A DNA stretch of 64,000 nucleotides from Escherichia phage iGC_PHA_EC001, in the sequence record OR437326.1; one strand, written 5' to 3'. The position numbers and the translations under genes are program-made. Below, piece after piece: positions 3,661 to 56,825 of this stretch (positions are counted from its first letter, which is position 1; every line of letters starts with the position of its first letter). The notes under the pieces were generated by a model, which ran no database searches, was not told where the DNA came from, and saw only the letters and a list, made by a program, of their open reading frames with translations.

Positions 3661-4722
3661 ATGGCGAAGCCAATATATTATCCTGACTGGGCTACACAAA
3701 CTGTAACGCTCCCAGGAACTTTAAACACAAACAAAATTAGACCTAAAGAAACCATCCGCACAATTGGTATGGATTATGGTCAAATCATGACTTGCGAAGA
3801 GATGAACTGGATTCTTAATAATATCGGTTTATGGATTCGCTATTTGGTGGATGATTTTCTTCCAACTTTACCTAATACCTACTTGCCTTTAGTGGGAACT
3901 AAGATTACAATGGCAGGTGATGCTACTGGTGAGGCCACTTGGAACGGTAACAAAGAAGTTACTTTATCTATCCAAGTTCAAGATAACAGTCATAATCACT
4001 TGTCAGCAAACATTACAGATGCTACTAGTTCAACAGTAACACCAAACGTGTTGGTAAAACGTGATGCGGGTGGTGCTATTTATGGTGGTGATGTTTATGT
4101 TAACGGTACTTCCACAACAGATCCTGCAACACTGTTCTTCAAAAACTTTGCAGGACAAACAAATGGTGAGATTTCTGCCGAATACCAAAGTGGAGGTCAG
4201 CTTTATATTTATCGTAGAAATCCTAGCACAGGTAGTGTATCAGCAGGTGTTCGTTTATATGATGCAGGTTATGTTCTAATAGACAGTCCAAGATCAAACA
4301 GTGGACAAGATACTTCTAACGGAAATGCTTTAGTTCGCTTAGATTATCTGAATTCTCGTTTGACTTCTCTTCAGAACACATTGCAGACGAATATTAACAC
4401 TGTTCAAAACAACCTGAATAGTGTTAACAGCAACCTCTCTTCCCGTATAAACAATGTAGAAAGTAATCATCAAAATCAGATTACAAATAACTACAATTAT
4501 GCTAACGGAACATTTGTAAGAGATATTCGTTATACTAGCCAAGGTGTGTATTATCCACCAGGGAACGAGGTTTCTTGGACTTATATCTGTTCTTCTGGTT
4601 ATGTTCTTTCTGGTATTATTGTACAGGAAACAGGACGTAGCTCTGCGGATAACATCGGTGGGGTTTACTTCAAACGCCTCCAGCGCAACGTTAACGGAAA
4701 CTGGTACGATATTGGAGGCTAA
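3661..4722 (+). CDS. Tail fibre protein
   Basis: 353 aa; Asn/Ser/Thr-rich heptad segment LQNTLQTNINTVQNNLNSVNSNLSSRINNVE; immediately followed by a fibre assembly chaperone. Confidence 0.65.
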   Translation: MAKPIYYPDWATQTVTLPGTLNTNKIRPKETIRTIGMDYGQIMTCEEMNWILNNIGLWIRYLVDDFLPTLPNTYLPLVGTKITMAGDATGEATWNGNKEVTLSIQVQDNSHNHLSANITDATSSTVTPNVLVKRDAGGAIYGGDVYVNGTSTTDPATLFFKNFAGQTNGEISAEYQSGGQLYIYRRNPSTGSVSAGVRLYDAGYVLIDSPRSNSGQDTSNGNALVRLDYLNSRLTSLQNTLQTNINTVQNNLNSVNSNLSSRINNVESNHQNQITNNYNYANGTFVRDIRYTSQGVYYPPGNEVSWTYICSSGYVLSGIIVQETGRSSADNIGGVYFKRLQRNVNGNWYDIGG

Positions 4723-5268
4723 ATGATATTTACAAACTTTAAAAAATATATTCCTGAAGATCCTGAACTAAAAGAATTGGTAGAAGCAAAGAACATTCTT
4801 TTTCTTCGTTGCGATCAAGGTTACGATTGGTATGATTTACGTAGCACAGAATTCAATAACGATAAAATGAAAGTCGTTTTTGATGATCAAAATCGTATTG
4901 TGTTTTGGAATACTGATCCTACACTACTTTGCCCTGAAGATCTTTCTATAGCACAAGTAGACTTTAATATAGATACTTTTGAGGATATTAGGAATAAGGT
5001 TCTGGATTTAGAAACCTTAACTCTTAAGGATAAAGAGTATTCCCGTGAAGAGTTGATGACACAAGCTAGTGCAAAAATTCGCTCTTTACAAGAAACAGCG
5101 GTAGCACTTATAACACCTTTACAGTATGCTAAAGATTTAGAAATGGCTACTGAAGACGAATTAGCTTATCTTAAAAATCTTCAAGTTTATGTGGTTAAAC
5201 TAAATCGTGTTCCGCTTCAAAAAGATTATCCTTACACTATAGATTGGCCTACATTACCGACGGAATAA
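4723..5268 (+). CDS. Tail fibre assembly chaperone (Tfa-like)
   Basis: C-terminal PLQYAKDLEMATEDELAYLKNLQVYVVKLNRVP matches the conserved Tfa C-terminal motif; start overlaps the fibre gene stop. Confidence 0.7.
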   Translation: MIFTNFKKYIPEDPELKELVEAKNILFLRCDQGYDWYDLRSTEFNNDKMKVVFDDQNRIVFWNTDPTLLCPEDLSIAQVDFNIDTFEDIRNKVLDLETLTLKDKEYSREELMTQASAKIRSLQETAVALITPLQYAKDLEMATEDELAYLKNLQVYVVKLNRVPLQKDYPYTIDWPTLPTE

Positions 5269-51234: not shown

Positions 51235-51486
51235 ATGATTCAGTTCCAAAAAGGTCAAAAGATGACGGTATACGACGCAAAAGATATGGAATTTGCACTT
51301 GAACTTCTCGAAGATGCAGGTTTTGTGTGGATCAACGGCGGAGAGAAGCCTACGGCTTGGCTTCCACATGAAAAAGTAGTCAACCACACCTTTCCTGACA
51401 GTATCAACTGGCATTCTGATGGTAAGATTTGCCGTGGAAGTTACCCAACAGGTGTCGAGTGGACCATTAAATTAGGAGGGCTTTAA
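51235..51486 (+). CDS. Hypothetical protein
   Basis: 83-aa ORF. Confidence 0.3.
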   Translation: MIQFQKGQKMTVYDAKDMEFALELLEDAGFVWINGGEKPTAWLPHEKVVNHTFPDSINWHSDGKICRGSYPTGVEWTIKLGGL

Positions 51487-51826: not shown

Positions 51827-52077
51827 TGTTAAGCGTTAAGCCTAAGATGATCAGTGAAGACCAGAAAGATTTCATTTACAAGTGTGGACGAATCTGGAGA
51901 GAGTATACCAAGGGTAACGAGGTCGTGGTGGTTACTGAACACCAGATTGAAATCTCTGATCTTTTCGGTGATTATTTGCAAGTGATCAAATTAGGCATTG
52001 ACAGAGGTTTGGTGCAGGTGTTAACATTATCCCAAGTTGAAGCAGAACACTTAGACAAAATCATTGTCGAGTTCTAA
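51826..52077 (+). CDS. Hypothetical protein
   Basis: 83-aa ORF. Confidence 0.3.
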   Translation: MLSVKPKMISEDQKDFIYKCGRIWREYTKGNEVVVVTEHQIEISDLFGDYLQVIKLGIDRGLVQVLTLSQVEAEHLDKIIVEF

Positions 52078-52255: not shown

Positions 52256-52410
52256 GGAGAGAATATGATTTTAAACTTCATCATCAACTTGTGTTTGACA
52301 TTGGGACTACTCTGTGCAATAGTATCCCCTCTGGTTGGTGAATATTGTTCTGAACTGGCGATGTTTATAGTTCTTGGTGCAGCTATTGCTAATATGTTTG
52401 TCGCTGCGAT

Positions 52411-52770
52411 TTGTATGTTGTGGGAATAGGAGGGAAGTTTATGAAAAAATTAATCTTAGCCACATTGCTGGCTACCGTAAGCTTCACCACTTACGCTCAA
52501 AAATTTGTAGCAGTTAAAACGGATATTGGTAAAGATGTTGTGATCACAGGCAACAAATTTTACTATACCCCTGGAAATGGTGTTCTAGAAGAGTGCCAAG
52601 ATGTTGAGGCATATACAGGAAAAGAAGATAACACGGAACGTCCTTTTTATTCGATTATAGCTACTTGCAAAAATGAAATAGTAGCTATTAAACAATACAA
52701 AGATGCCCCTGGAGGAGAGTACTTATTAATCAAGAATATTAAGAGTGAAAAACTACAAAGTTTACAGTAA
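52411..52770 (+). CDS. Secreted hypothetical protein (signal peptide)
   Basis: MKKLILATLLATVSFTTYAQ. Confidence 0.35.
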   Translation: MYVVGIGGKFMKKLILATLLATVSFTTYAQKFVAVKTDIGKDVVITGNKFYYTPGNGVLEECQDVEAYTGKEDNTERPFYSIIATCKNEIVAIKQYKDAPGGEYLLIKNIKSEKLQSLQ

Positions 52771-52795
52771 TTATTTTAAAAGGAGAAACGTTCTA

Positions 52796-53935
52796 ATGAA
52801 ATACACTATTTTTGGAGATGTGGCTGTTGTAAATAAGGAATATGGTGTTGAAGCTAATAAACTTCCTGCTGGAGTTTGGGTTGTCAACTGCGATCCGCAC
52901 GGTAACTACTCTTTAGTGCGTGGCGAAAGTTTCTCTCTTCCGAACACTCTTTATGGGGAAACTAAAGACCGCGCCGCACATGTTATTAAAACATTTGCTC
53001 GTCGTAGTAAAGAAGGTAAAAATACTGGGGTGTTACTGACAGGAACAAAGGGCAGTGGTAAGACGATGTTAGCTAAACTGATTAGCATGTCCCTAATGTC
53101 CACAGAAGGTTTAGGTATTCCAACCATTTTGGTGACACAGCCTTACACAGATGCTGGATTCTTAGAATTTATGAGTAAAATTACAGATCGTGCTGTTGTT
53201 TTATTTGACGAGTTTGATAAAGTGTACGCTAAGAAAGAAGATCAGGAAGCACTGTTGACCTTGTTGGATGGAACAGGAAGTGGAAATAAACTTTACATCC
53301 TCACTAAAAATAGTGGCTATATCTCGGAATATTTTGTAAACCGTCCTAGTCGTATCTACTACAGTTTCAATTACGATAAACTGTCTAGTGAAACTATGTT
53401 AGATTACTTGGATAAGAACTTGGTAAATAAAAAGCACGTAGATAACTTCCAACGTTTATGGGATGTTAGCACAGAGTTGTCTTTCGATGTTATTCAAGGC
53501 ATTGTAGAAGAATTGAATTTCTATCCAAAAATGACTTTTAAAGAATGTCTTGAAATGATGGGTATTTCTTTAGGGAACGATGCTAAATGGAATGTGGCTT
53601 CTATCGTAGCTAATGGCAAAACCTTGAAGGTGAATTGGATCAATAACTGGCACGACTTCACCCCTACTAAGTTTTTGTCGGGTGCTTGTTCCCTGAACAT
53701 CTATCTACAAAGTTTGAAAGATGATGAAGTGGAAGCAATAGAAACCAACAGTTATGTTATCCTGGATGAAGATGGTGATCCACATATTGATCTATGTGCA
53801 ACGGCGGATGGTCTAACTTGCGATCTGATTGAAGGTGGTAAGATTCTTGTGATGAGCACTACACCAGGAAACACTCTGCGAGTGGTGCTGGAGCCTGTAA
53901 CACAACGTTCCACCACACTTGGTAGCGTGTTCTAA
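52796..53935 (+). CDS. AAA+ ATPase
   Basis: Start at ATG 52796 after AAAGGAG; Walker A GVLLTGTKGSGKTMLAKL; Walker B VVLFDEFDKV. Confidence 0.55.
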   Translation: MKYTIFGDVAVVNKEYGVEANKLPAGVWVVNCDPHGNYSLVRGESFSLPNTLYGETKDRAAHVIKTFARRSKEGKNTGVLLTGTKGSGKTMLAKLISMSLMSTEGLGIPTILVTQPYTDAGFLEFMSKITDRAVVLFDEFDKVYAKKEDQEALLTLLDGTGSGNKLYILTKNSGYISEYFVNRPSRIYYSFNYDKLSSETMLDYLDKNLVNKKHVDNFQRLWDVSTELSFDVIQGIVEELNFYPKMTFKECLEMMGISLGNDAKWNVASIVANGKTLKVNWINNWHDFTPTKFLSGACSLNIYLQSLKDDEVEAIETNSYVILDEDGDPHIDLCATADGLTCDLIEGGKILVMSTTPGNTLRVVLEPVTQRSTTLGSVF

Positions 53936-53940
53936 TAAAG

Positions 53941-53965
53941 ATGCCCCGCAAGGGGCATTTCTTAT
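53941..53965 (+). terminator. Rho-independent terminator
   Basis: ATGCCCC-gcaa-GGGGCAT followed by TTCTT. Confidence 0.55.
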
Positions 53966-53976
53966 AGGATGAAATC

Positions 53977-55185
53977 ATGAGTAAAGCTAAAAGTTGGGAA
54001 GAATATAAAGCAGAATGCGAGATCATAGCTCTCTCTAAAGGATATAAAATTTTAGGCCATAAAGAATGGAAAGGGTGTGAGACTAAACTCCTGATAGAAT
54101 GTCCTGTGCACGGTGTATGGGATACTTGTAAAATATCTAACTTTAAAAGTGGGAAGTCTTGCCCTTCTTGTGGTGAATTAACAAAAAGGGAGAAGAGAAC
54201 GAAGAGCAGAGAGGACCAAGAGAAAGAGTGTGAAGAAGAAGCGTTAAAAAGAGGTTGGCGCTTCTTGGGTATCTATGGAGAATGGCTGAAAGCTAAAAAG
54301 ACACGAGTAATCTTACGTTGTGATAGGGGTCACGAGTTTAACACATCTACCATAGACAACTTTAAGAATAATAAACAAGGTTGTCCAGTTTGTCGTTTAG
54401 AGGATATAGGTAAACACAATAAGCTTTCAGACGATCAGCACATACAAGATTTCATGAGTACGGGTGTGTTTCCCGAAGGCACTACCTTCACTAATACAGG
54501 GGAAAAAGCTGGGAGGAGCGAAATACTTTGGAGTGTATTTTGCCCTATCTGTGCTATAGATGAGTTTTCCAAAGCTGGGGTAGGAACGGGATATTTTATC
54601 GGTAGAGGTAGTTCATTAAAACAGGGTATGCGCCCTTGTCGTTGTTCTGCCAGTTACAAATATTCTGAAGAAGAGATGACATTTAGAGCAAAAAGTGACG
54701 TAGAACGTAGAGGGTACGTGTGGTTGGGGTGGATCGGGAAAGCTTCTATACTTGGGGATTTTGAATATGGTTGCAAGGATCATGGGAAACATGTGTGTAG
54801 TGCTAACAATTGGTTAAATAAGGGGTGTGGTTGCCCTGGTTGTGCAGGTATGAATCAACAACAAGCCTACATTAATTATATTTACGATGAGCAAGATATT
54901 ATCTGTGCACTGAAGTTTGGTATTGCTAATAATAGTAATCGCCGTATCAAAGAACAAAATAGTCGTAATGTGTTTACTATGAAACAGAGCCAAGTGTGGC
55001 ACTTCCCTACTGTGAAGCAATGCAAAGATGCAGAAAAGCGTTGTAAGCGTGTCCTTCACACGGAAGCAGTGAGCAAATATTCTATGCCAGATGGCTACAC
55101 AGAGACAGTGGAGTTATCTTGCATGGCATCAATACAAAATATTTATAAACTTTATGGTGGAACATTACAGGAGGAAACATGTTAG
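53977..55185 (+). CDS. Cys-rich protein with three tandem zinc-ribbon-like repeats
   Basis: Three repeats of G-[YW]-x-[IF]-LG..W..x..C..HG..x..NF..G..CP-x-C (from aa 20, 90 and 236). Confidence 0.4.
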   Translation: MSKAKSWEEYKAECEIIALSKGYKILGHKEWKGCETKLLIECPVHGVWDTCKISNFKSGKSCPSCGELTKREKRTKSREDQEKECEEEALKRGWRFLGIYGEWLKAKKTRVILRCDRGHEFNTSTIDNFKNNKQGCPVCRLEDIGKHNKLSDDQHIQDFMSTGVFPEGTTFTNTGEKAGRSEILWSVFCPICAIDEFSKAGVGTGYFIGRGSSLKQGMRPCRCSASYKYSEEEMTFRAKSDVERRGYVWLGWIGKASILGDFEYGCKDHGKHVCSANNWLNKGCGCPGCAGMNQQQAYINYIYDEQDIICALKFGIANNSNRRIKEQNSRNVFTMKQSQVWHFPTVKQCKDAEKRCKRVLHTEAVSKYSMPDGYTETVELSCMASIQNIYKLYGGTLQEETC

Positions 55186-55544
55186 TTGACGTTCAAATTA
55201 TGCGCAACGAAAGAATGGACTTCTTTGAAGCAGTAGAGAAACATCTGATCAGATGGGACTATGAATTTGTTCCTGCTGGATGTGGACCAGTAGAGCATTT
55301 AGCGGAAGACGACGATGTATACATGATCATTCGTCAAGTGTACCAGACAGACCAGTGTGAAGAAACTCCCGAACTAATTTTGTTTGAGTGCAAAGATCTT
55401 GCAAAATATTTTGACTATGGCGGAAAAGAGGGTCATAATCTCTCCAGATACAATAAACGTCTACTTATCTTAGACTACATGCGGAACAACAAACACAAAC
55501 TCATCGACGCAGACGCAGTTTATGGCTACTGGTGGATGGACTAA
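55179..55544 (+). CDS. Hypothetical protein
   Basis: 121-aa ORF. Confidence 0.3.
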   Translation: MLVDVQIMRNERMDFFEAVEKHLIRWDYEFVPAGCGPVEHLAEDDDVYMIIRQVYQTDQCEETPELILFECKDLAKYFDYGGKEGHNLSRYNKRLLILDYMRNNKHKLIDADAVYGYWWMD

Positions 55545-55737
55545 CAAAGGAGAAACTATGGCACGTTTAGCAGATCATGAAATCTTTAAACCTATTCTGA
55601 ACCACTATGATGAACTTAAAGCAGTGTTGGATTGTTATAAAGAGGATGAAGAACGCTTGGAAGTCAATCTTAAGATAGTTCTGATGAAAGCTTTTCAAGA
55701 CGGGCAAGCTAAAGTCTTAGAAGGTATGAAAAAATGA
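55522..55737 (+). CDS. Hypothetical protein
   Basis: 71-aa ORF. Confidence 0.3.
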   Translation: MATGGWTNKGETMARLADHEIFKPILNHYDELKAVLDCYKEDEERLEVNLKIVLMKAFQDGQAKVLEGMKK

Positions 55738-56276
55738 GAATAACTGACGAATATGTATTCTTCTTTTCACATAAAGATGTTTTTAGTAATTGGTATATTG
55801 CACCCTTTACAGAAACCGAACCAGGTTACAATCAGACATTTAATTGTGTCGAACAATACATGATGTGGCGTAAAGCTTTGCTTTTTAATGACCACAACAC
55901 TGCACAGGCTATTCTGACTCATAGTTTGATACGGAAAGATGAGAAGATCCAAGCTTATTACAAACGTATGGGTAGGGCAGTGTCGGATTTTGATAACAAT
56001 ATGTGGGAAGAGAACCGTGAGCGTATTGTTATGCGAGGTTTATGCTTGAAATATGTACAGAATCCAGATTTGTATGCAGACTTACACCTTTACCAATACA
56101 AAACGTTTGTTGAAGCAAGCCCCTACGATAAGGTTTACGGAATTGGAATGGGGATGTATGAACCAGGGGTGCTAAACCCTGCCACCTGGAAAGGACAGAA
56201 TCTTTTAGGCAAATATCATAATAAACTGATCGAAATACTTTTCCCAGACAAAATACCGCAAAGACGATATTTGTGA
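55734..56276 (+). CDS. NADAR-domain (YbiA-like) protein
   Basis: VFFFSHKDVFSNWY..PF..x..FNCVEQYMMWRKALLF..x..NPDLYADL..x..EASPYDKVYGIGMG matches the NADAR family pattern. Confidence 0.6.
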   Translation: MRITDEYVFFFSHKDVFSNWYIAPFTETEPGYNQTFNCVEQYMMWRKALLFNDHNTAQAILTHSLIRKDEKIQAYYKRMGRAVSDFDNNMWEENRERIVMRGLCLKYVQNPDLYADLHLYQYKTFVEASPYDKVYGIGMGMYEPGVLNPATWKGQNLLGKYHNKLIEILFPDKIPQRRYL

Positions 56277-56330
56277 TATTTTAACTTTTTTCATTTTTAG
56301 AACAAAGGTGTCACTTTGTAGCACAGAAAT

Positions 56331-56368
56331 AAGGCTCCTACAGCACCGTAGAGAGCCTGTTATTTTGT
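56331..56368 (+). terminator. Rho-independent terminator ending the + gene block
   Basis: AGGCTC-ctacagcaccgtaga-GAGCCT hairpin followed by GTTATTTTGTCC. Confidence 0.5.
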
Positions 56369-56520
56369 CCTATACAAACCCTTGTCTTTTTCAGTTTGCA
56401 TCACTAGGATTCGATCTGAGTGGGTTCCTGAAGGTCTGCCAATAAGATTAAAGGTTATCTCAAACTCCCATTACCTATTATCTCAAAAATCCCTCAAATT
56501 ATTTAAACTTTTTAAGAATT

Positions 56521-56566
56521 TACAAAAGTGAAAGTTGAAAACCAAAATTTAAAGTTTAGGAAAATT
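56521..56566. repeat. AT-rich direct repeat, copy 1 (iteron-like)
   Basis: TACAAAAGTGAAAGTTGAAAACCAAAATTTAAAGTTTAGGAAAATT; about 80% identical to copy 2. Confidence 0.45.
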
Positions 56567-56658
56567 ATCTTAAAATGTCAGATACAAAACAAAACTCAAA
56601 AGTCAAGGAAAATTTTAAAAATTTTGCGCGCCCACAGTATTTAAAGTTTTTTTGCTTT

Positions 56659-56704
56659 TACAAAAATGAAAGTACAAAAGCAAAATTTAAAGTTTACAAA
56701 AATT
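56659..56704. repeat. AT-rich direct repeat, copy 2 (iteron-like)
   Basis: TACAAAAATGAAAGTACAAAAGCAAAATTTAAAGTTTACAAAAATT. Confidence 0.45.
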
Positions 56705-56714
56705 TATGCAGATG

Positions 56715-56825
56715 GGAATGAGAAGAGTTCTCATATGGAAATGCAAATGATAATGATTCGCATTTAGGTTTATAAATGAGATTGATTCTTATTTGATAAG
56801 GTAAATGATAATCATTCTCATTTAG
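56715..56825. promoter_or_regulatory. Cluster of Fur-box-like palindromes
   Basis: AATGAGAAGAGTTCTCAT (56717..56734), AAATGATAATGATTCGCATT (about 14/19 to GATAATGATAATCATTATC), AATGATAATCATTCTC (about 16/19 including an exact AATGATAATCATT 13-mer). Confidence 0.4.

What the first reader, a model, noticed from the sequence alone, without database searches (positions are those of the whole stretch)
52796..55185. AAA+ ATPase followed by a protein with three tandem Cys-rich zinc-ribbon-like repeats, upstream of NADAR
The 402-aa protein contains three about 70-aa repeats each ending in a C-P-x-C ribbon, suggesting a modular nucleic-acid- or protein-binding scaffold. It is co-transcribed with an AAA+ ATPase and, after two small genes, the NADAR gene; together these may form one functional unit of unknown role.
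Basis: seen in the sequence. Interest (0 to 1): 0.4.

Follow-up and report, generated by a model that had tools for sequence, protein, structure and literature searches.

The report
Free-standing phage homing endonuclease gene
The 402-aa "zinc-ribbon repeat" protein is a known kind of selfish phage gene, a homing endonuclease with four zinc-finger DNA-binding modules and a C-terminal nuclease domain. It sits as a swappable cassette between an unrelated, highly conserved ATPase gene and the genes downstream, so the finding is ordinary.

Summary
The window is a Phapecoctavirus (phAPEC8/ESCO5-like E. coli myophage), 98.7% identical to ESCO5 over this region. The ORFs are real, and so are the three CPxC-ending repeats (R1/R2 z=17, R2/R4 z=5.3). 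A fourth zinc module, the canonical CapR type (CxxC…CxC), lies between repeats 2 and 3. The last ~110 aa form a T5orf172/GIY-YIG-like nuclease domain with invariant Arg323, Glu353 and Glu376.

The protein matches Pfam CapR (E 1e-22) and PHROG 681 "endonuclease" (E 5e-75), and RefSeq already calls it "endonuclease". Barth, Dunham & Seed (2023) described this architecture: T5orf172 homing endonucleases with repeated CapR/DUF723/DUF4379 zinc fingers.

It does not form a unit with the ATPase or NADAR:
- Related phages carry at least five alleles of 332-486 aa, with 1-3 N-terminal repeats, between flanks that are ~98% identical.
- phiWec188 has a clean empty site.
- A terminator-like hairpin separates the gene from the ATPase gene.
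- Distant homologues sit in unrelated neighbourhoods.
- ATPase homologues in other phages lack it.

Verdict: a known kind of element, low interest. The allele-swapping locus is a modest curiosity.

The parts
53977..55185 (+). Free-standing homing endonuclease gene (402 aa): four zinc-finger modules plus a T5orf172/GIY-YIG-like nuclease domain
   Evidence: ORF. PF21817 CapR at E 9.6e-23 with 4 stretches, and phrog_681 'endonuclease' at E 4.5e-75 covering aa 2-400. Annotated 'endonuclease' in RefSeq ESCO5 and phAPEC8. AlphaFold model has mean pLDDT 94.
53977..54186 (+). Repeat R1 (aa 1-70), A-type zinc module; putative ligands C42, H45, C62, C65 (CPSC)
   Evidence: CapR E 6e-8 and DUF723 E 2.5e-3 on the isolated segment. 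R1/R2 z=17.4. Predicted element order helix, three strands, short helix.
54187..54411 (+). Repeat R2 (aa 71-145), A-type zinc module; C115, H119, C136, C139 (CPVC)
   Evidence: DUF4379 'treble clef' E 6e-4. C115, C136 and C139 are present in 65 of 66 homologues.
54412..54651 (+). Module R3 (aa 146-225), canonical CapR-type zinc finger; C189-x2-C192 ... C221-x-C223
   Evidence: Best CapR match, E 6e-10 over profile positions 2-67 of 67. C189, C192 and C221 are invariant in 66 homologues. Same CxxC...CxC motif shown to be needed for CapR DNA binding (PMC8096241).
54652..54855 (+). Repeat R4 (aa 226-293), A-type-like zinc module; C266, H269, C286, C289 (CPGC)
   Evidence: CapR E 1e-3. R2/R4 z=5.3. 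C289 is invariant.
54856..55182 (+). C-terminal nuclease domain (aa 294-402), T5orf172/GIY-YIG-like. Motifs: Y298-I-N ('GIY' strand), K313-F-G ('YIG' strand), R323, E353, G373-Y-T-E376-T
   Evidence: MUG113 at 20.7 bits (cutoff 22.3) and T5orf172 at 19.5 bits (cutoff 20). 24 of 66 homologues hit T5orf172. Domain model pLDDT 94, pTM 0.87. BFVD hits: 'GIY-YIG domain-containing protein' at E 1.4e-7, TM 0.81; 'Homing endonuclease' at 3.6e-8; 'T5 Orf172' at 4.7e-5. Best PDB hit is the GIY-YIG nuclease At-HIGLE (prob 0.90, E 0.07), then Slx1 and UvrC. K313, G315, R323, E353, G373, E376 and T377 are invariant.
53966..55168 (+). Extent of the exchangeable cassette (region where DNA homology to phages carrying other alleles is lost)
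   Evidence: Identity to ZCKP1, REC and 118_SA_NWU is 95-98.5% up to 53965 and again from 55169, with no DNA match between. The phiWec179 versus phiWec188 indel has equivalent boundaries.
53941..53958 (+). GC-rich hairpin ATGCCCC-GCAA-GGGGCAT followed by TTCTTAT, between the ATPase stop and the endonuclease start. It is terminator-like, and the extended stem covers the endonuclease Shine-Dalgarno AGGA.
   Evidence: Flagged by the terminator scan, which listed this palindromic stem on the minus strand only; the plus-strand reading and tail are read from the sequence. RNA MFE -19.6 kcal/mol, z -3.5. Conserved in phages with other alleles and at the empty site. Other alleles have a different terminator-like hairpin, AAACCCGC-TTCG-GCGGGTTTT, at the same place.
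52796..53935 (+). Left flank, not part of the element: conserved AAA ATPase gene. Its 3' end is a possible location of the endonuclease target site.
   Evidence: PF00004 and phrog_2376. 99.5-99.7% aa identity across phapecoctaviruses. A cluster of 6 differences in ~18 bp just before the stop codon separates the endonuclease-less phiWec188 from its endonuclease-bearing sister phiWec179; by my translation of the sequences all six are synonymous.
55179..55544 (+). Right flank, not part of the element: 121-aa ORF (phrog_24465). Its RBS (GGAGGAAA) and start codon overlap the last codons of the endonuclease.
   Evidence: It directly follows the ATPase gene (45-bp gap) in phiWec188.

Best explanation
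The 402-aa ORF is a free-standing homing endonuclease gene (HEG) of the T5orf172 family, within the GIY-YIG superfamily.

Proposed mechanism:
- An N-terminal 'beads-on-a-string' array of four small zinc-binding modules reads a long, asymmetric DNA site. Three are A-type C/H...CPxC modules and one is the canonical CapR CxxC...CxC finger.
- The C-terminal GIY-YIG-like domain (R323, E353, E376) cuts nearby.
- During mixed infection, a cut in a genome that lacks this allele is repaired from the HEG-bearing genome. This copies the cassette, and probably adjacent markers, into the intergenic gap between the ATPase gene and the 121-aa ORF.
- The gene brings its own ribosome-binding site and lies behind a terminator-like hairpin, so it is probably expressed weakly by read-through.

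The ATPase and NADAR genes are bystanders. The conserved 3' end of the ATPase gene is a plausible target region.

Shown here: domain composition, conservation of the catalytic and zinc-ligand residues, cassette replacement, the empty site, and the lack of conserved neighbours.

Inferred only: DNA cleavage, the position of the target site, present-day mobility, and the expression pattern.
For: Family assignment:
- CapR Pfam E 9.6e-23 with 4 stretches, and PHROG 681 'endonuclease' E 4.5e-75.
- tblastn hits to ICP1 'putative homing endonuclease' genes, including ORF165, at E ~1e-16, reaching into the nuclease domain (aa 88-329).
- All 66 homologues carry CapR, and 21-24 also hit DUF723, DUF4379 or T5orf172.

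Nuclease domain:
- High-confidence model (pLDDT 94, pTM 0.87).
- Matches to phage GIY-YIG, T5orf172 and homing-endonuclease models at E 1e-7 to 5e-5, TM 0.66-0.84.
- Best PDB matches are the GIY-YIG nucleases At-HIGLE, Slx1 and UvrC.
- K313, G315, R323, E353 and E376 are invariant in 66 sequences down to ~25% identity.
- E353 aligns with E180 of ICP1 Odn (weak). Mutating E180 abolishes Odn cleavage in vitro and in vivo (PMC8263062).

Mobility:
- Exact cassette boundaries at 53965/55169 against phages with a 486-aa allele, and partial swaps of the DNA-binding half only in phAPEC8 and EF1-1.
- Size classes among the 60 records listed: 6, 12, 15, 20 and 3 records with different spans (my tally of the spans listed).
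- Clean empty site in phiWec188: a 1007-bp insert versus 9 bp, with flanks 98% and 95.6% identical to sister phage phiWec179.

Independence from neighbours.

Literature: Barth, Dunham & Seed 2023 describe exactly this architecture, including repeat-number variation and domain swapping (PMC10448857).
Against: - No cleavage or homing data exist for this protein.
- The T5orf172 and MUG113 Pfam scores fall just below the curated cutoffs, and the PDB fold matches are not statistically significant (E 0.07 and above).
- The gene is present in nearly every Stephanstirmvirinae genome examined. Only phiWec188, and the doubtful EP57 assembly, lack it among the 60 records listed. A purely selfish HEG at fixation is expected to decay, yet all alleles are intact, which could indicate a selected function.
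- Only one reliable empty site exists, so loss by deletion cannot be told apart from never having been invaded.
- The synonymous-SNP cluster next to the site is not unique: another 100-bp bin has 7 mismatches. It also does not track HEG presence across genera.
Confidence: 0.8

Rival explanations
1. Domesticated HEG derivative. The protein still uses its zinc-finger array and nuclease, but it works for the phage. It could be an anti-satellite or anti-competitor nuclease like ICP1 Odn, or a sequence-specific repressor like PLE CapR or I-TevI autorepression. It would not be propagating itself.
For: - Near-universal presence and intact ORFs across two genera, with invariant catalytic residues.
- Other T5orf172 proteins in this same phage subfamily (Inny, Muut, Mt1B1_P17) were proposed to be Odn-like anti-satellite nucleases (PMC10448857).
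- CapR shows that this zinc finger can act as a repressor.
Against: - The DNA-binding part is CapR/DUF723-type, not the RepA_N domain that defines the Odn-like nucleases.
- No PADLOC or NCBIfam defence-related match.
- phiWec188 is an isolated, propagated phage without the gene.
- Whole-cassette and half-cassette exchange between near-identical flanks is the pattern expected of competing selfish alleles.
- A CapR-like repressor role does not need the conserved nuclease residues.
Confidence: 0.15
2. One reading: a zinc-ribbon scaffold that works together with the upstream AAA+ ATPase and the downstream NADAR as one co-transcribed functional module.
For: Same strand and tight spacing (41-bp gap upstream, 7-bp overlap downstream). 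The ATPase-then-endonuclease order is kept in both Phapecoctavirus and Justusliebigvirus.
Against: - The ATPase is 99.5-99.7% conserved while the endonuclease alleles are 33-63% identical to the window protein.
- The empty site in phiWec188 leaves the ATPase, small ORFs and NADAR intact.
- A terminator-like hairpin lies between the two genes.
- ATPase homologues in CBB and LAh_9 lack it.
- Endonuclease homologues elsewhere lack an ATPase or NADAR neighbour.
Confidence: 0.03
3. A decaying, inactive HEG remnant that persists only because its 3' end overlaps the start of the downstream gene.
For: Fixation in the lineage is the stage at which HEGs usually degenerate (established HEG life-cycle model). 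The last codons overlap the RBS and start codon of the next ORF.
Against: All examined alleles are full-length ORFs. Every putative catalytic residue and zinc ligand is conserved across 66 homologues. The model is confidently folded throughout.
Confidence: 0.02

Closest known systems
T5orf172-family homing endonucleases with repeated CapR/DUF723/DUF4379 zinc-finger DNA-binding domains (ICP1 gp165, gp174 and others; Barth, Dunham & Seed 2023, PMC10448857; Netter et al. 2021, PMC8096241)
   Same: - N-terminal array of CapR-type zinc fingers with a C-terminal T5orf172 domain.
- Direct sequence similarity to ICP1 ORF165 (E ~1e-16).
- Variable repeat number and swapping of DNA-binding versus nuclease halves between alleles.
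- Placement beside a highly conserved gene.
   Different: - It is in a different phage lineage (Stephanstirmvirinae coliphages). This locus was not found in that paper's held supplementary tables.
- Its T5orf172 domain is divergent, just under the Pfam cutoffs.
- It mixes two zinc-module subtypes (C/H...CPxC and CxxC...CxC) in one protein.
ICP1 Odn (Gp88), origin-directed T5orf172 nuclease (PMC8263062)
   Same: T5orf172 nuclease domain with conserved catalytic Arg and Glu. Odn E180 aligns with E353 here (weak). Odn is the experimental proof that this domain cleaves DNA.
   Different: Odn targets DNA through a RepA_N domain taken from a satellite and is domesticated. The window protein uses zinc fingers and behaves like a mobile cassette.
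PLE CapR, capsid-operon repressor (PMC8096241)
   Same: Module R3 has the same CxxC...CxC zinc finger that gives the Pfam family its name. In CapR the cysteines are required for DNA binding.
   Different: CapR has no nuclease domain and acts as a transcriptional repressor in a phage satellite. The window protein keeps a nuclease domain with intact catalytic residues.
Classical free-standing GIY-YIG HEGs of T4 (Seg proteins) and I-TevI
   Same: The 'beads-on-a-string' logic (cited, bib52): a GIY-YIG-type catalytic domain linked to modular DNA-binding units that include a zinc finger. Also intergenic insertion between conserved genes.
   Different: Domain order is reversed, with the nuclease C-terminal here and N-terminal in I-TevI and Seg (my knowledge). 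There is no PF01541 GIY-YIG match. There are four zinc modules instead of one zinc finger plus a helix-turn-helix.

Membership tests
T5orf172-family homing endonuclease (GIY-YIG superfamily) | T5orf172 (PF10544) or the related MUG113 (PF13455) domain | tested here: inconclusive
   On the isolated domain, T5orf172 scores 19.5 bits (cutoff 20) and MUG113 20.7 bits (cutoff 22.3). 24 of 66 homologues hit T5orf172 and 12 hit MUG113 at E<0.01. The scores are just sub-threshold but consistent.
T5orf172-family homing endonuclease (GIY-YIG superfamily) | GIY-YIG-like fold of the catalytic domain | tested here: met
   Domain model pLDDT 94.3, pTM 0.87, with predicted element order two strands, helix, strand, helix. 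BFVD hits: GIY-YIG domain protein (K64-1) at E 1.4e-7, TM 0.81; 'Homing endonuclease' (phage UB) at E 3.6e-8; T5 Orf172 domain protein at E 4.7e-5. The PDB top hit is the GIY-YIG nuclease At-HIGLE (prob 0.90), but E is only 0.07.
T5orf172-family homing endonuclease (GIY-YIG superfamily) | Conserved catalytic Arg and Glu | tested here: met
   R323, E353 and E376 are invariant in 66 homologues. The hhalign register puts E353 opposite Odn E180, the residue required for Odn cleavage. That alignment is weak (E 0.014).
T5orf172-family homing endonuclease (GIY-YIG superfamily) | Associated zinc-finger DNA-binding domain(s) of CapR/DUF723/DUF4379 type, often repeated | tested here: met
   CapR E 9.6e-23 with 4 stretches, plus weaker DUF723 and DUF4379 hits. 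Repeat statistics. Cys ligands conserved.
T5orf172-family homing endonuclease (GIY-YIG superfamily) | Presence/absence or allele polymorphism at a fixed site between otherwise near-identical genomes (footprint of mobility) | tested here: met
   Empty site in phiWec188 versus filled site in phiWec179. At least five allele size classes between ~98% identical flanks.
T5orf172-family homing endonuclease (GIY-YIG superfamily) | Site-specific DNA cleavage and super-Mendelian inheritance (homing) | not testable with these tools
   Needs cleavage assays and phage crosses.
CapR-type transcriptional repressor (nuclease-less, satellite-encoded) | CapR zinc finger without a nuclease domain | tested here: not met
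   The CapR domain is present, but a conserved C-terminal nuclease domain is also present.
Canonical GIY-YIG endonuclease (PF01541; I-TevI/Seg type) | Match to the GIY-YIG Pfam model with canonical GIY/YIG motifs | tested here: not met
   No PF01541 hit at E<=1 or E<=10. The motifs are Y-I-N and K-F-G instead of GIY and YIG.
   the genes occur and evolve independently.

The most novel reading that the evidence does not exclude
The ATPase / 121-aa-ORF junction of Stephanstirmvirinae may be a standing 'arena' in which several intact HEG alleles keep displacing one another during mixed infections. The alleles differ mainly in the number (1-3) and sequence of N-terminal zinc-finger modules. Each would cut genomes carrying rival alleles, giving allele-specific marker exclusion. 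That would explain why the gene is almost never lost or degraded despite being fixed. On this reading, repeat gain and loss in the zinc-finger array is the way new specificities arise.
Probability: 0.25. Interest if true: 0.4.

Novelty: already known. Interest (0 to 1): 0.15.

Why it matters
It matters little beyond annotation. The result corrects a plausible but wrong 'operon' reading: the zinc-ribbon protein is a selfish endonuclease cassette, not a partner of the ATPase or NADAR. It also gives the gene a specific family name rather than the bare label 'endonuclease'.

There is a modest wider value. This locus offers a well-sampled natural series in easily grown coliphages: about 70 sequenced phages, at least five alleles with 1-3 extra zinc-finger modules, and one clean empty site. 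That series could be used to measure how T5orf172 homing endonucleases choose targets, and how adding or removing zinc-finger modules changes specificity. This may interest people who engineer modular nucleases.

Tried and rejected
- Sequence search of the whole protein and of a profile of the nuclease domain against PDB sequences found nothing meaningful (a RING E3 ligase at E 0.6, TUP1 at E 0.37).
- Foldseek of the full-length model against PDB gave no significant hit (best E 2e-3, prob 0.38, to tandem dsRBD proteins). This is probably because the model is a string of small domains.
- No paralogue of the endonuclease lies elsewhere in the 64-kb window.
- There is no DNA-level tandem repeat in the gene.
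- IMG/VR gave only 6 related loci, so the phage GenBank collection was used instead.
- EP57 also lacks the gene, but its deletion (53926-55165) fuses the ATPase gene to the next ORF. The 130-kb record shows many other small deletions relative to the window. I treat it as a doubtful assembly, not as a second empty site.
- I looked for a target-site signature. A cluster of six differences, synonymous by my translation, lies at the ATPase 3' end between phiWec188 and phiWec179. It is suggestive but not unique and not consistent across genera, so I do not claim a target site.
- NCBIfam and PADLOC gave no match for the endonuclease and only sub-threshold P-loop hits for the ATPase.
- The supplementary tables of Barth et al. 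2023, as held, do not list phAPEC8, ESCO5, ukendt or ZCKP1.
Full report
**Source and gene layout.** The window comes from a Phapecoctavirus, a phAPEC8-like E. coli myophage of the Stephanstirmvirinae. Positions 52400-56300 are 98.7% identical to Escherichia phage ESCO5 and 97.8% to phage ukendt. The region from about 50.1 to 56.3 kb is a run of tightly spaced plus-strand ORFs. The coordinates in the finding cover two of them:
- 52796-53935, 379 aa.
- 53977-55185, 402 aa.

RefSeq annotates these in ESCO5 and phAPEC8 as 'ATPase' and 'endonuclease'.

**Checking the observation.**
- The first ORF is a P-loop AAA ATPase: PF00004 at 29.9 bits against a cutoff of 21.2, and phrog_2376 at E 5e-111.
- In local alignments against 1000 shuffles, R1/R2 scores z=17.4, R2/R4 z=5.3 and R1/R4 z=2.4.
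- The repeats are not strictly tandem. A fourth cysteine module, R3 (aa 146-225), lies between R2 and R4. It has a different ligand pattern, C189-x2-C192 ... C221-x-C223. It shows no pairwise similarity to the others, yet it is the best match to Pfam CapR (E 6e-10).
- The whole protein hits CapR at E 9.6e-23 in four stretches, with weaker hits to the related zinc-finger families DUF723 and DUF4379.
- The last ~110 residues are not repeat sequence.
- The repeats are ancient, since nothing repeats at the DNA level except the Cys-Pro-x-Cys codons.

**The C-terminal domain.**
- Residues 294-402 give sub-threshold Pfam hits to T5orf172 (19.5 bits, cutoff 20) and MUG113 (20.7 bits, cutoff 22.3).
- Among 66 homologues from the large protein database, all carry CapR, 24 hit T5orf172 and 12 hit MUG113.
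- AlphaFold models are confident: the whole protein has mean pLDDT 94, and the isolated domain has pLDDT 94.3 and pTM 0.87.
- The domain has the predicted element order two strands, helix, strand, helix, followed by a further helix and strand.
- Against predicted viral structures it matches many phage proteins at TM 0.66-0.95. These include 'Homing endonuclease' (phage UB, E 3.6e-8), 'GIY-YIG domain-containing protein' (K64-1, E 1.4e-7) and 'Bacteriophage T5 Orf172 DNA-binding domain-containing protein' (E 4.7e-5).
- Against solved structures, the best match is the GIY-YIG nuclease At-HIGLE (prob 0.90, E 0.07), followed by Slx1 and UvrC GIY-YIG domains. None of these is statistically significant.
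- K313, G315 (the 'YIG'-strand equivalent, K-F-G), R323, E353, G373, E376 and T377 are invariant across the 66 sequences, and Y298 is present in 65 of 66.
- A weak profile alignment to ICP1 Odn puts E353 opposite Odn E180. Odn is a T5orf172 protein, and its DNA cleavage in vitro and in vivo is abolished by E180A (PMC8263062).
- The domain therefore has the fold and the conserved Arg/Glu expected of an active GIY-YIG-superfamily nuclease.

**What is already known.**
- PHROG 681 ('endonuclease') covers residues 2-400 at E 4.5e-75.
- tblastn finds relatives in 398 phage records, including the ICP1 genes annotated 'putative homing endonuclease' (E ~1e-16).
- Netter et al. 2021 showed that the PLE repressor CapR binds DNA through a CxxC...CxC zinc finger, and that it derives from the N-terminal domains of ICP1 T5orf172 homing endonucleases (PMC8096241).
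- Barth, Dunham & Seed 2023 surveyed 229 T5orf172 HEGs. They found that 87% carry CapR, DUF723 or DUF4379 zinc fingers, often several per protein ('beads on a string'), and that repeat number and domain halves are shuffled by recombination (PMC10448857).
- The window protein fits that description in every respect.

**Is it a unit with the ATPase and NADAR?** The comparative data say no.
- *Different rates of change.* The ATPase is 99.5-99.7% identical in protein across phapecoctaviruses. The gene behind it comes in very different alleles: 402 aa (this window, ESCO5, ukendt), 394 aa (phAPEC8, 60% identical), 332 aa (EF1-1), 337 aa (phiWec179) and 486 aa (ZCKP1, REC, 118_SA_NWU; 33% identical). 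The alleles differ in carrying one, two or three N-terminal A-type repeats ahead of a constant R3-R4-nuclease core.
- *Exact cassette boundaries.* DNA identity to the 486-aa-allele phages is 95-98.5% up to window position 53965. It vanishes across the ORF and resumes at 55169. In phAPEC8 and EF1-1 it resumes inside the gene (54634 and 54428), so only the DNA-binding half differs.
- *Size classes.* Among the 60 records listed, my tally of the spans across the locus gives classes of 6, 12, 15, 20 and 3 records, plus two records with no endonuclease.
- *An empty site.* In phiWec188 the ATPase gene is followed after 45 bp by the 121-aa ORF. Its sister phages phiWec179, 181 and 186 carry a 337-aa endonuclease there. 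The difference is a 1007-bp insert against 9 bp, with flanks 98.0% and 95.6% identical. The small ORFs and NADAR are intact in phiWec188.
- *A doubtful second case.* EP57 also lacks the gene. Its deletion has different ends and fuses the ATPase gene to the next ORF. The record shows many other small deletions, so I do not rely on it.
- *Other phages.* ATPase homologues in more distant phages (CBB, LAh_9) have no such neighbour. More distant homologues of the endonuclease sit beside a DNA ligase, between tape-measure and distal-tail genes, or among small ORFs, never with an AAA ATPase or NADAR.
- *Same order in a second genus.* In Justusliebigvirus muut the endonuclease (396 aa, 47% identical) again follows the ATPase gene. 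There it directly precedes the next gene (annotated hypothetical, PVOG VOG0154; not tested here), without the two small ORFs seen in the window.

**Local anatomy.**
- The 41-bp gap between the ATPase stop and the endonuclease start holds a GC-rich hairpin, ATGCCCC-GCAA-GGGGCAT, followed by TTCTTAT.
- As RNA, the extended stem folds at -19.6 kcal/mol (z -3.5) and covers the endonuclease Shine-Dalgarno sequence.
- The hairpin belongs to the conserved flank. It is present with other alleles and at the empty site.
- Phages with the phAPEC8, EF1-1 or muut alleles have a different, clearer terminator-like hairpin at the same place, AAACCCGC-TTCG-GCGGGTTTT.
- At the 3' end, the last codons of the endonuclease overlap the GGAGGAAA ribosome-binding site and the ATG of the 121-aa ORF.
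- So the cassette is almost exactly the ORF plus its own ribosome-binding site, dropped between a terminator and the next gene's translation start.
- I infer weak, read-through-dependent expression, as is usual for free-standing phage HEGs. This was not tested.

**Possible target site.**
- The last 100 bp of the ATPase gene differ at 8 positions between phiWec188 and phiWec179, against a background of about 1-2 per 100 bp.
- Six of these differences fall within about 18 bp just before the stop codon. By my translation of the two sequences, all six are synonymous.
- This is what a cleavage-site immunity or co-conversion footprint would look like.
- However, another 100-bp bin has 7 differences, and the pattern does not track endonuclease presence across genera. 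I record it only as a lead.

**Mechanism proposed.**
- The four zinc modules bind a long DNA site in a modular way.
- The GIY-YIG-like domain cleaves nearby.
- Repair from the HEG-bearing genome during co-infection copies the cassette in.

Established by the data: the domain composition, residue conservation, cassette behaviour and empty site. Inferred only: cleavage, target position and current mobility.

**Main rival.** The main rival reading, at about 15%, is that the gene has been domesticated, because it is almost never missing and never decayed. The same phage subfamily is reported to carry Odn-like T5orf172 nucleases elsewhere in the genome. The most novel reading not excluded is that several alleles persist because each excludes the others during mixed infection.

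**Verdict.** The object is a member of an already described family and is already annotated as an endonuclease in public records. Interest is low.

Noticed in passing
window 56717-56825 (non-coding, about 440 bp downstream of the NADAR gene): Three to four copies of a Fur-box-like palindrome at 29-bp spacing. An example is AAATGATAATCATTCTCATTT at 56803-56823, which matches 16 of 19 positions of GATAATGATAATCATTATC. That is 1 match in the window against 0.02 expected. An iron-regulator operator array in a lytic phage would be unusual. The region is about 73% conserved even in Justusliebigvirus muut, where part of it is annotated 'repeat_region'.
   Followed up: partly
window 56495-56566 and 56633-56704: A 72-nt AT-rich direct repeat (82% identical), with a shorter third copy at 56586-56614. 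It lies in the same ~1.1-kb gene-poor stretch between NADAR and the next ORFs. Its role is unknown; promoter array or origin-like are guesses.
   Followed up: no
window 55734-56276 (+): The NADAR gene is labelled 'GTP cyclohydrolase II' in many related phage records. Here it matches only NADAR (PF08719, E 1e-35) and TIGR02464 'ribofla_fusion' (E 1.5e-32), plus PADLOC PDC-M42C (E 1.5e-35). The cyclohydrolase name appears to be carried over from fusion proteins.
   Followed up: partly
window 53925-53985; L002 about 4540-4612; L003 about 5130-5200: Two unrelated terminator-like hairpins (ATGCCCCGCAAGGGGCAT and AAACCCGCTTCGGCGGGTTTT) occupy the same intergenic position in different phages. Which one is present goes with the endonuclease allele downstream. 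So in some lineages the exchanged segment includes the hairpin.
   Followed up: partly
model of window 53977-55185: Each A-type zinc module has the predicted element order helix, three strands, short helix. The full-length model's only Foldseek PDB hits are weak matches to tandem dsRBD proteins such as TARBP2, R2D2, Loqs and ADAR2 (best E 2e-3, prob 0.38 or lower). This is not significant, but it may hint at the fold class of these DUF723/CapR modules.
   Followed up: no
L018 (Escherichia phage vB_EcoM_EP57, OR544956.1): This 130.7-kb record differs from the window by many short deletions. Examples are window about 51241-51483, 51834-51957, 53926-55165, 55670-56041 and 56356-56478. It also has fragmented small ORF calls. 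It looks like an assembly or consensus problem rather than biology.
   Followed up: no
window about 14000 and about 50000: GC skew changes sign at about 14 kb (plus to minus) and about 50 kb (minus to plus). At 50 kb this matches a switch from minus-strand to plus-strand genes, meaning divergent transcription from about 50.0 kb. No tRNA genes were found in the 64 kb.
   Followed up: no
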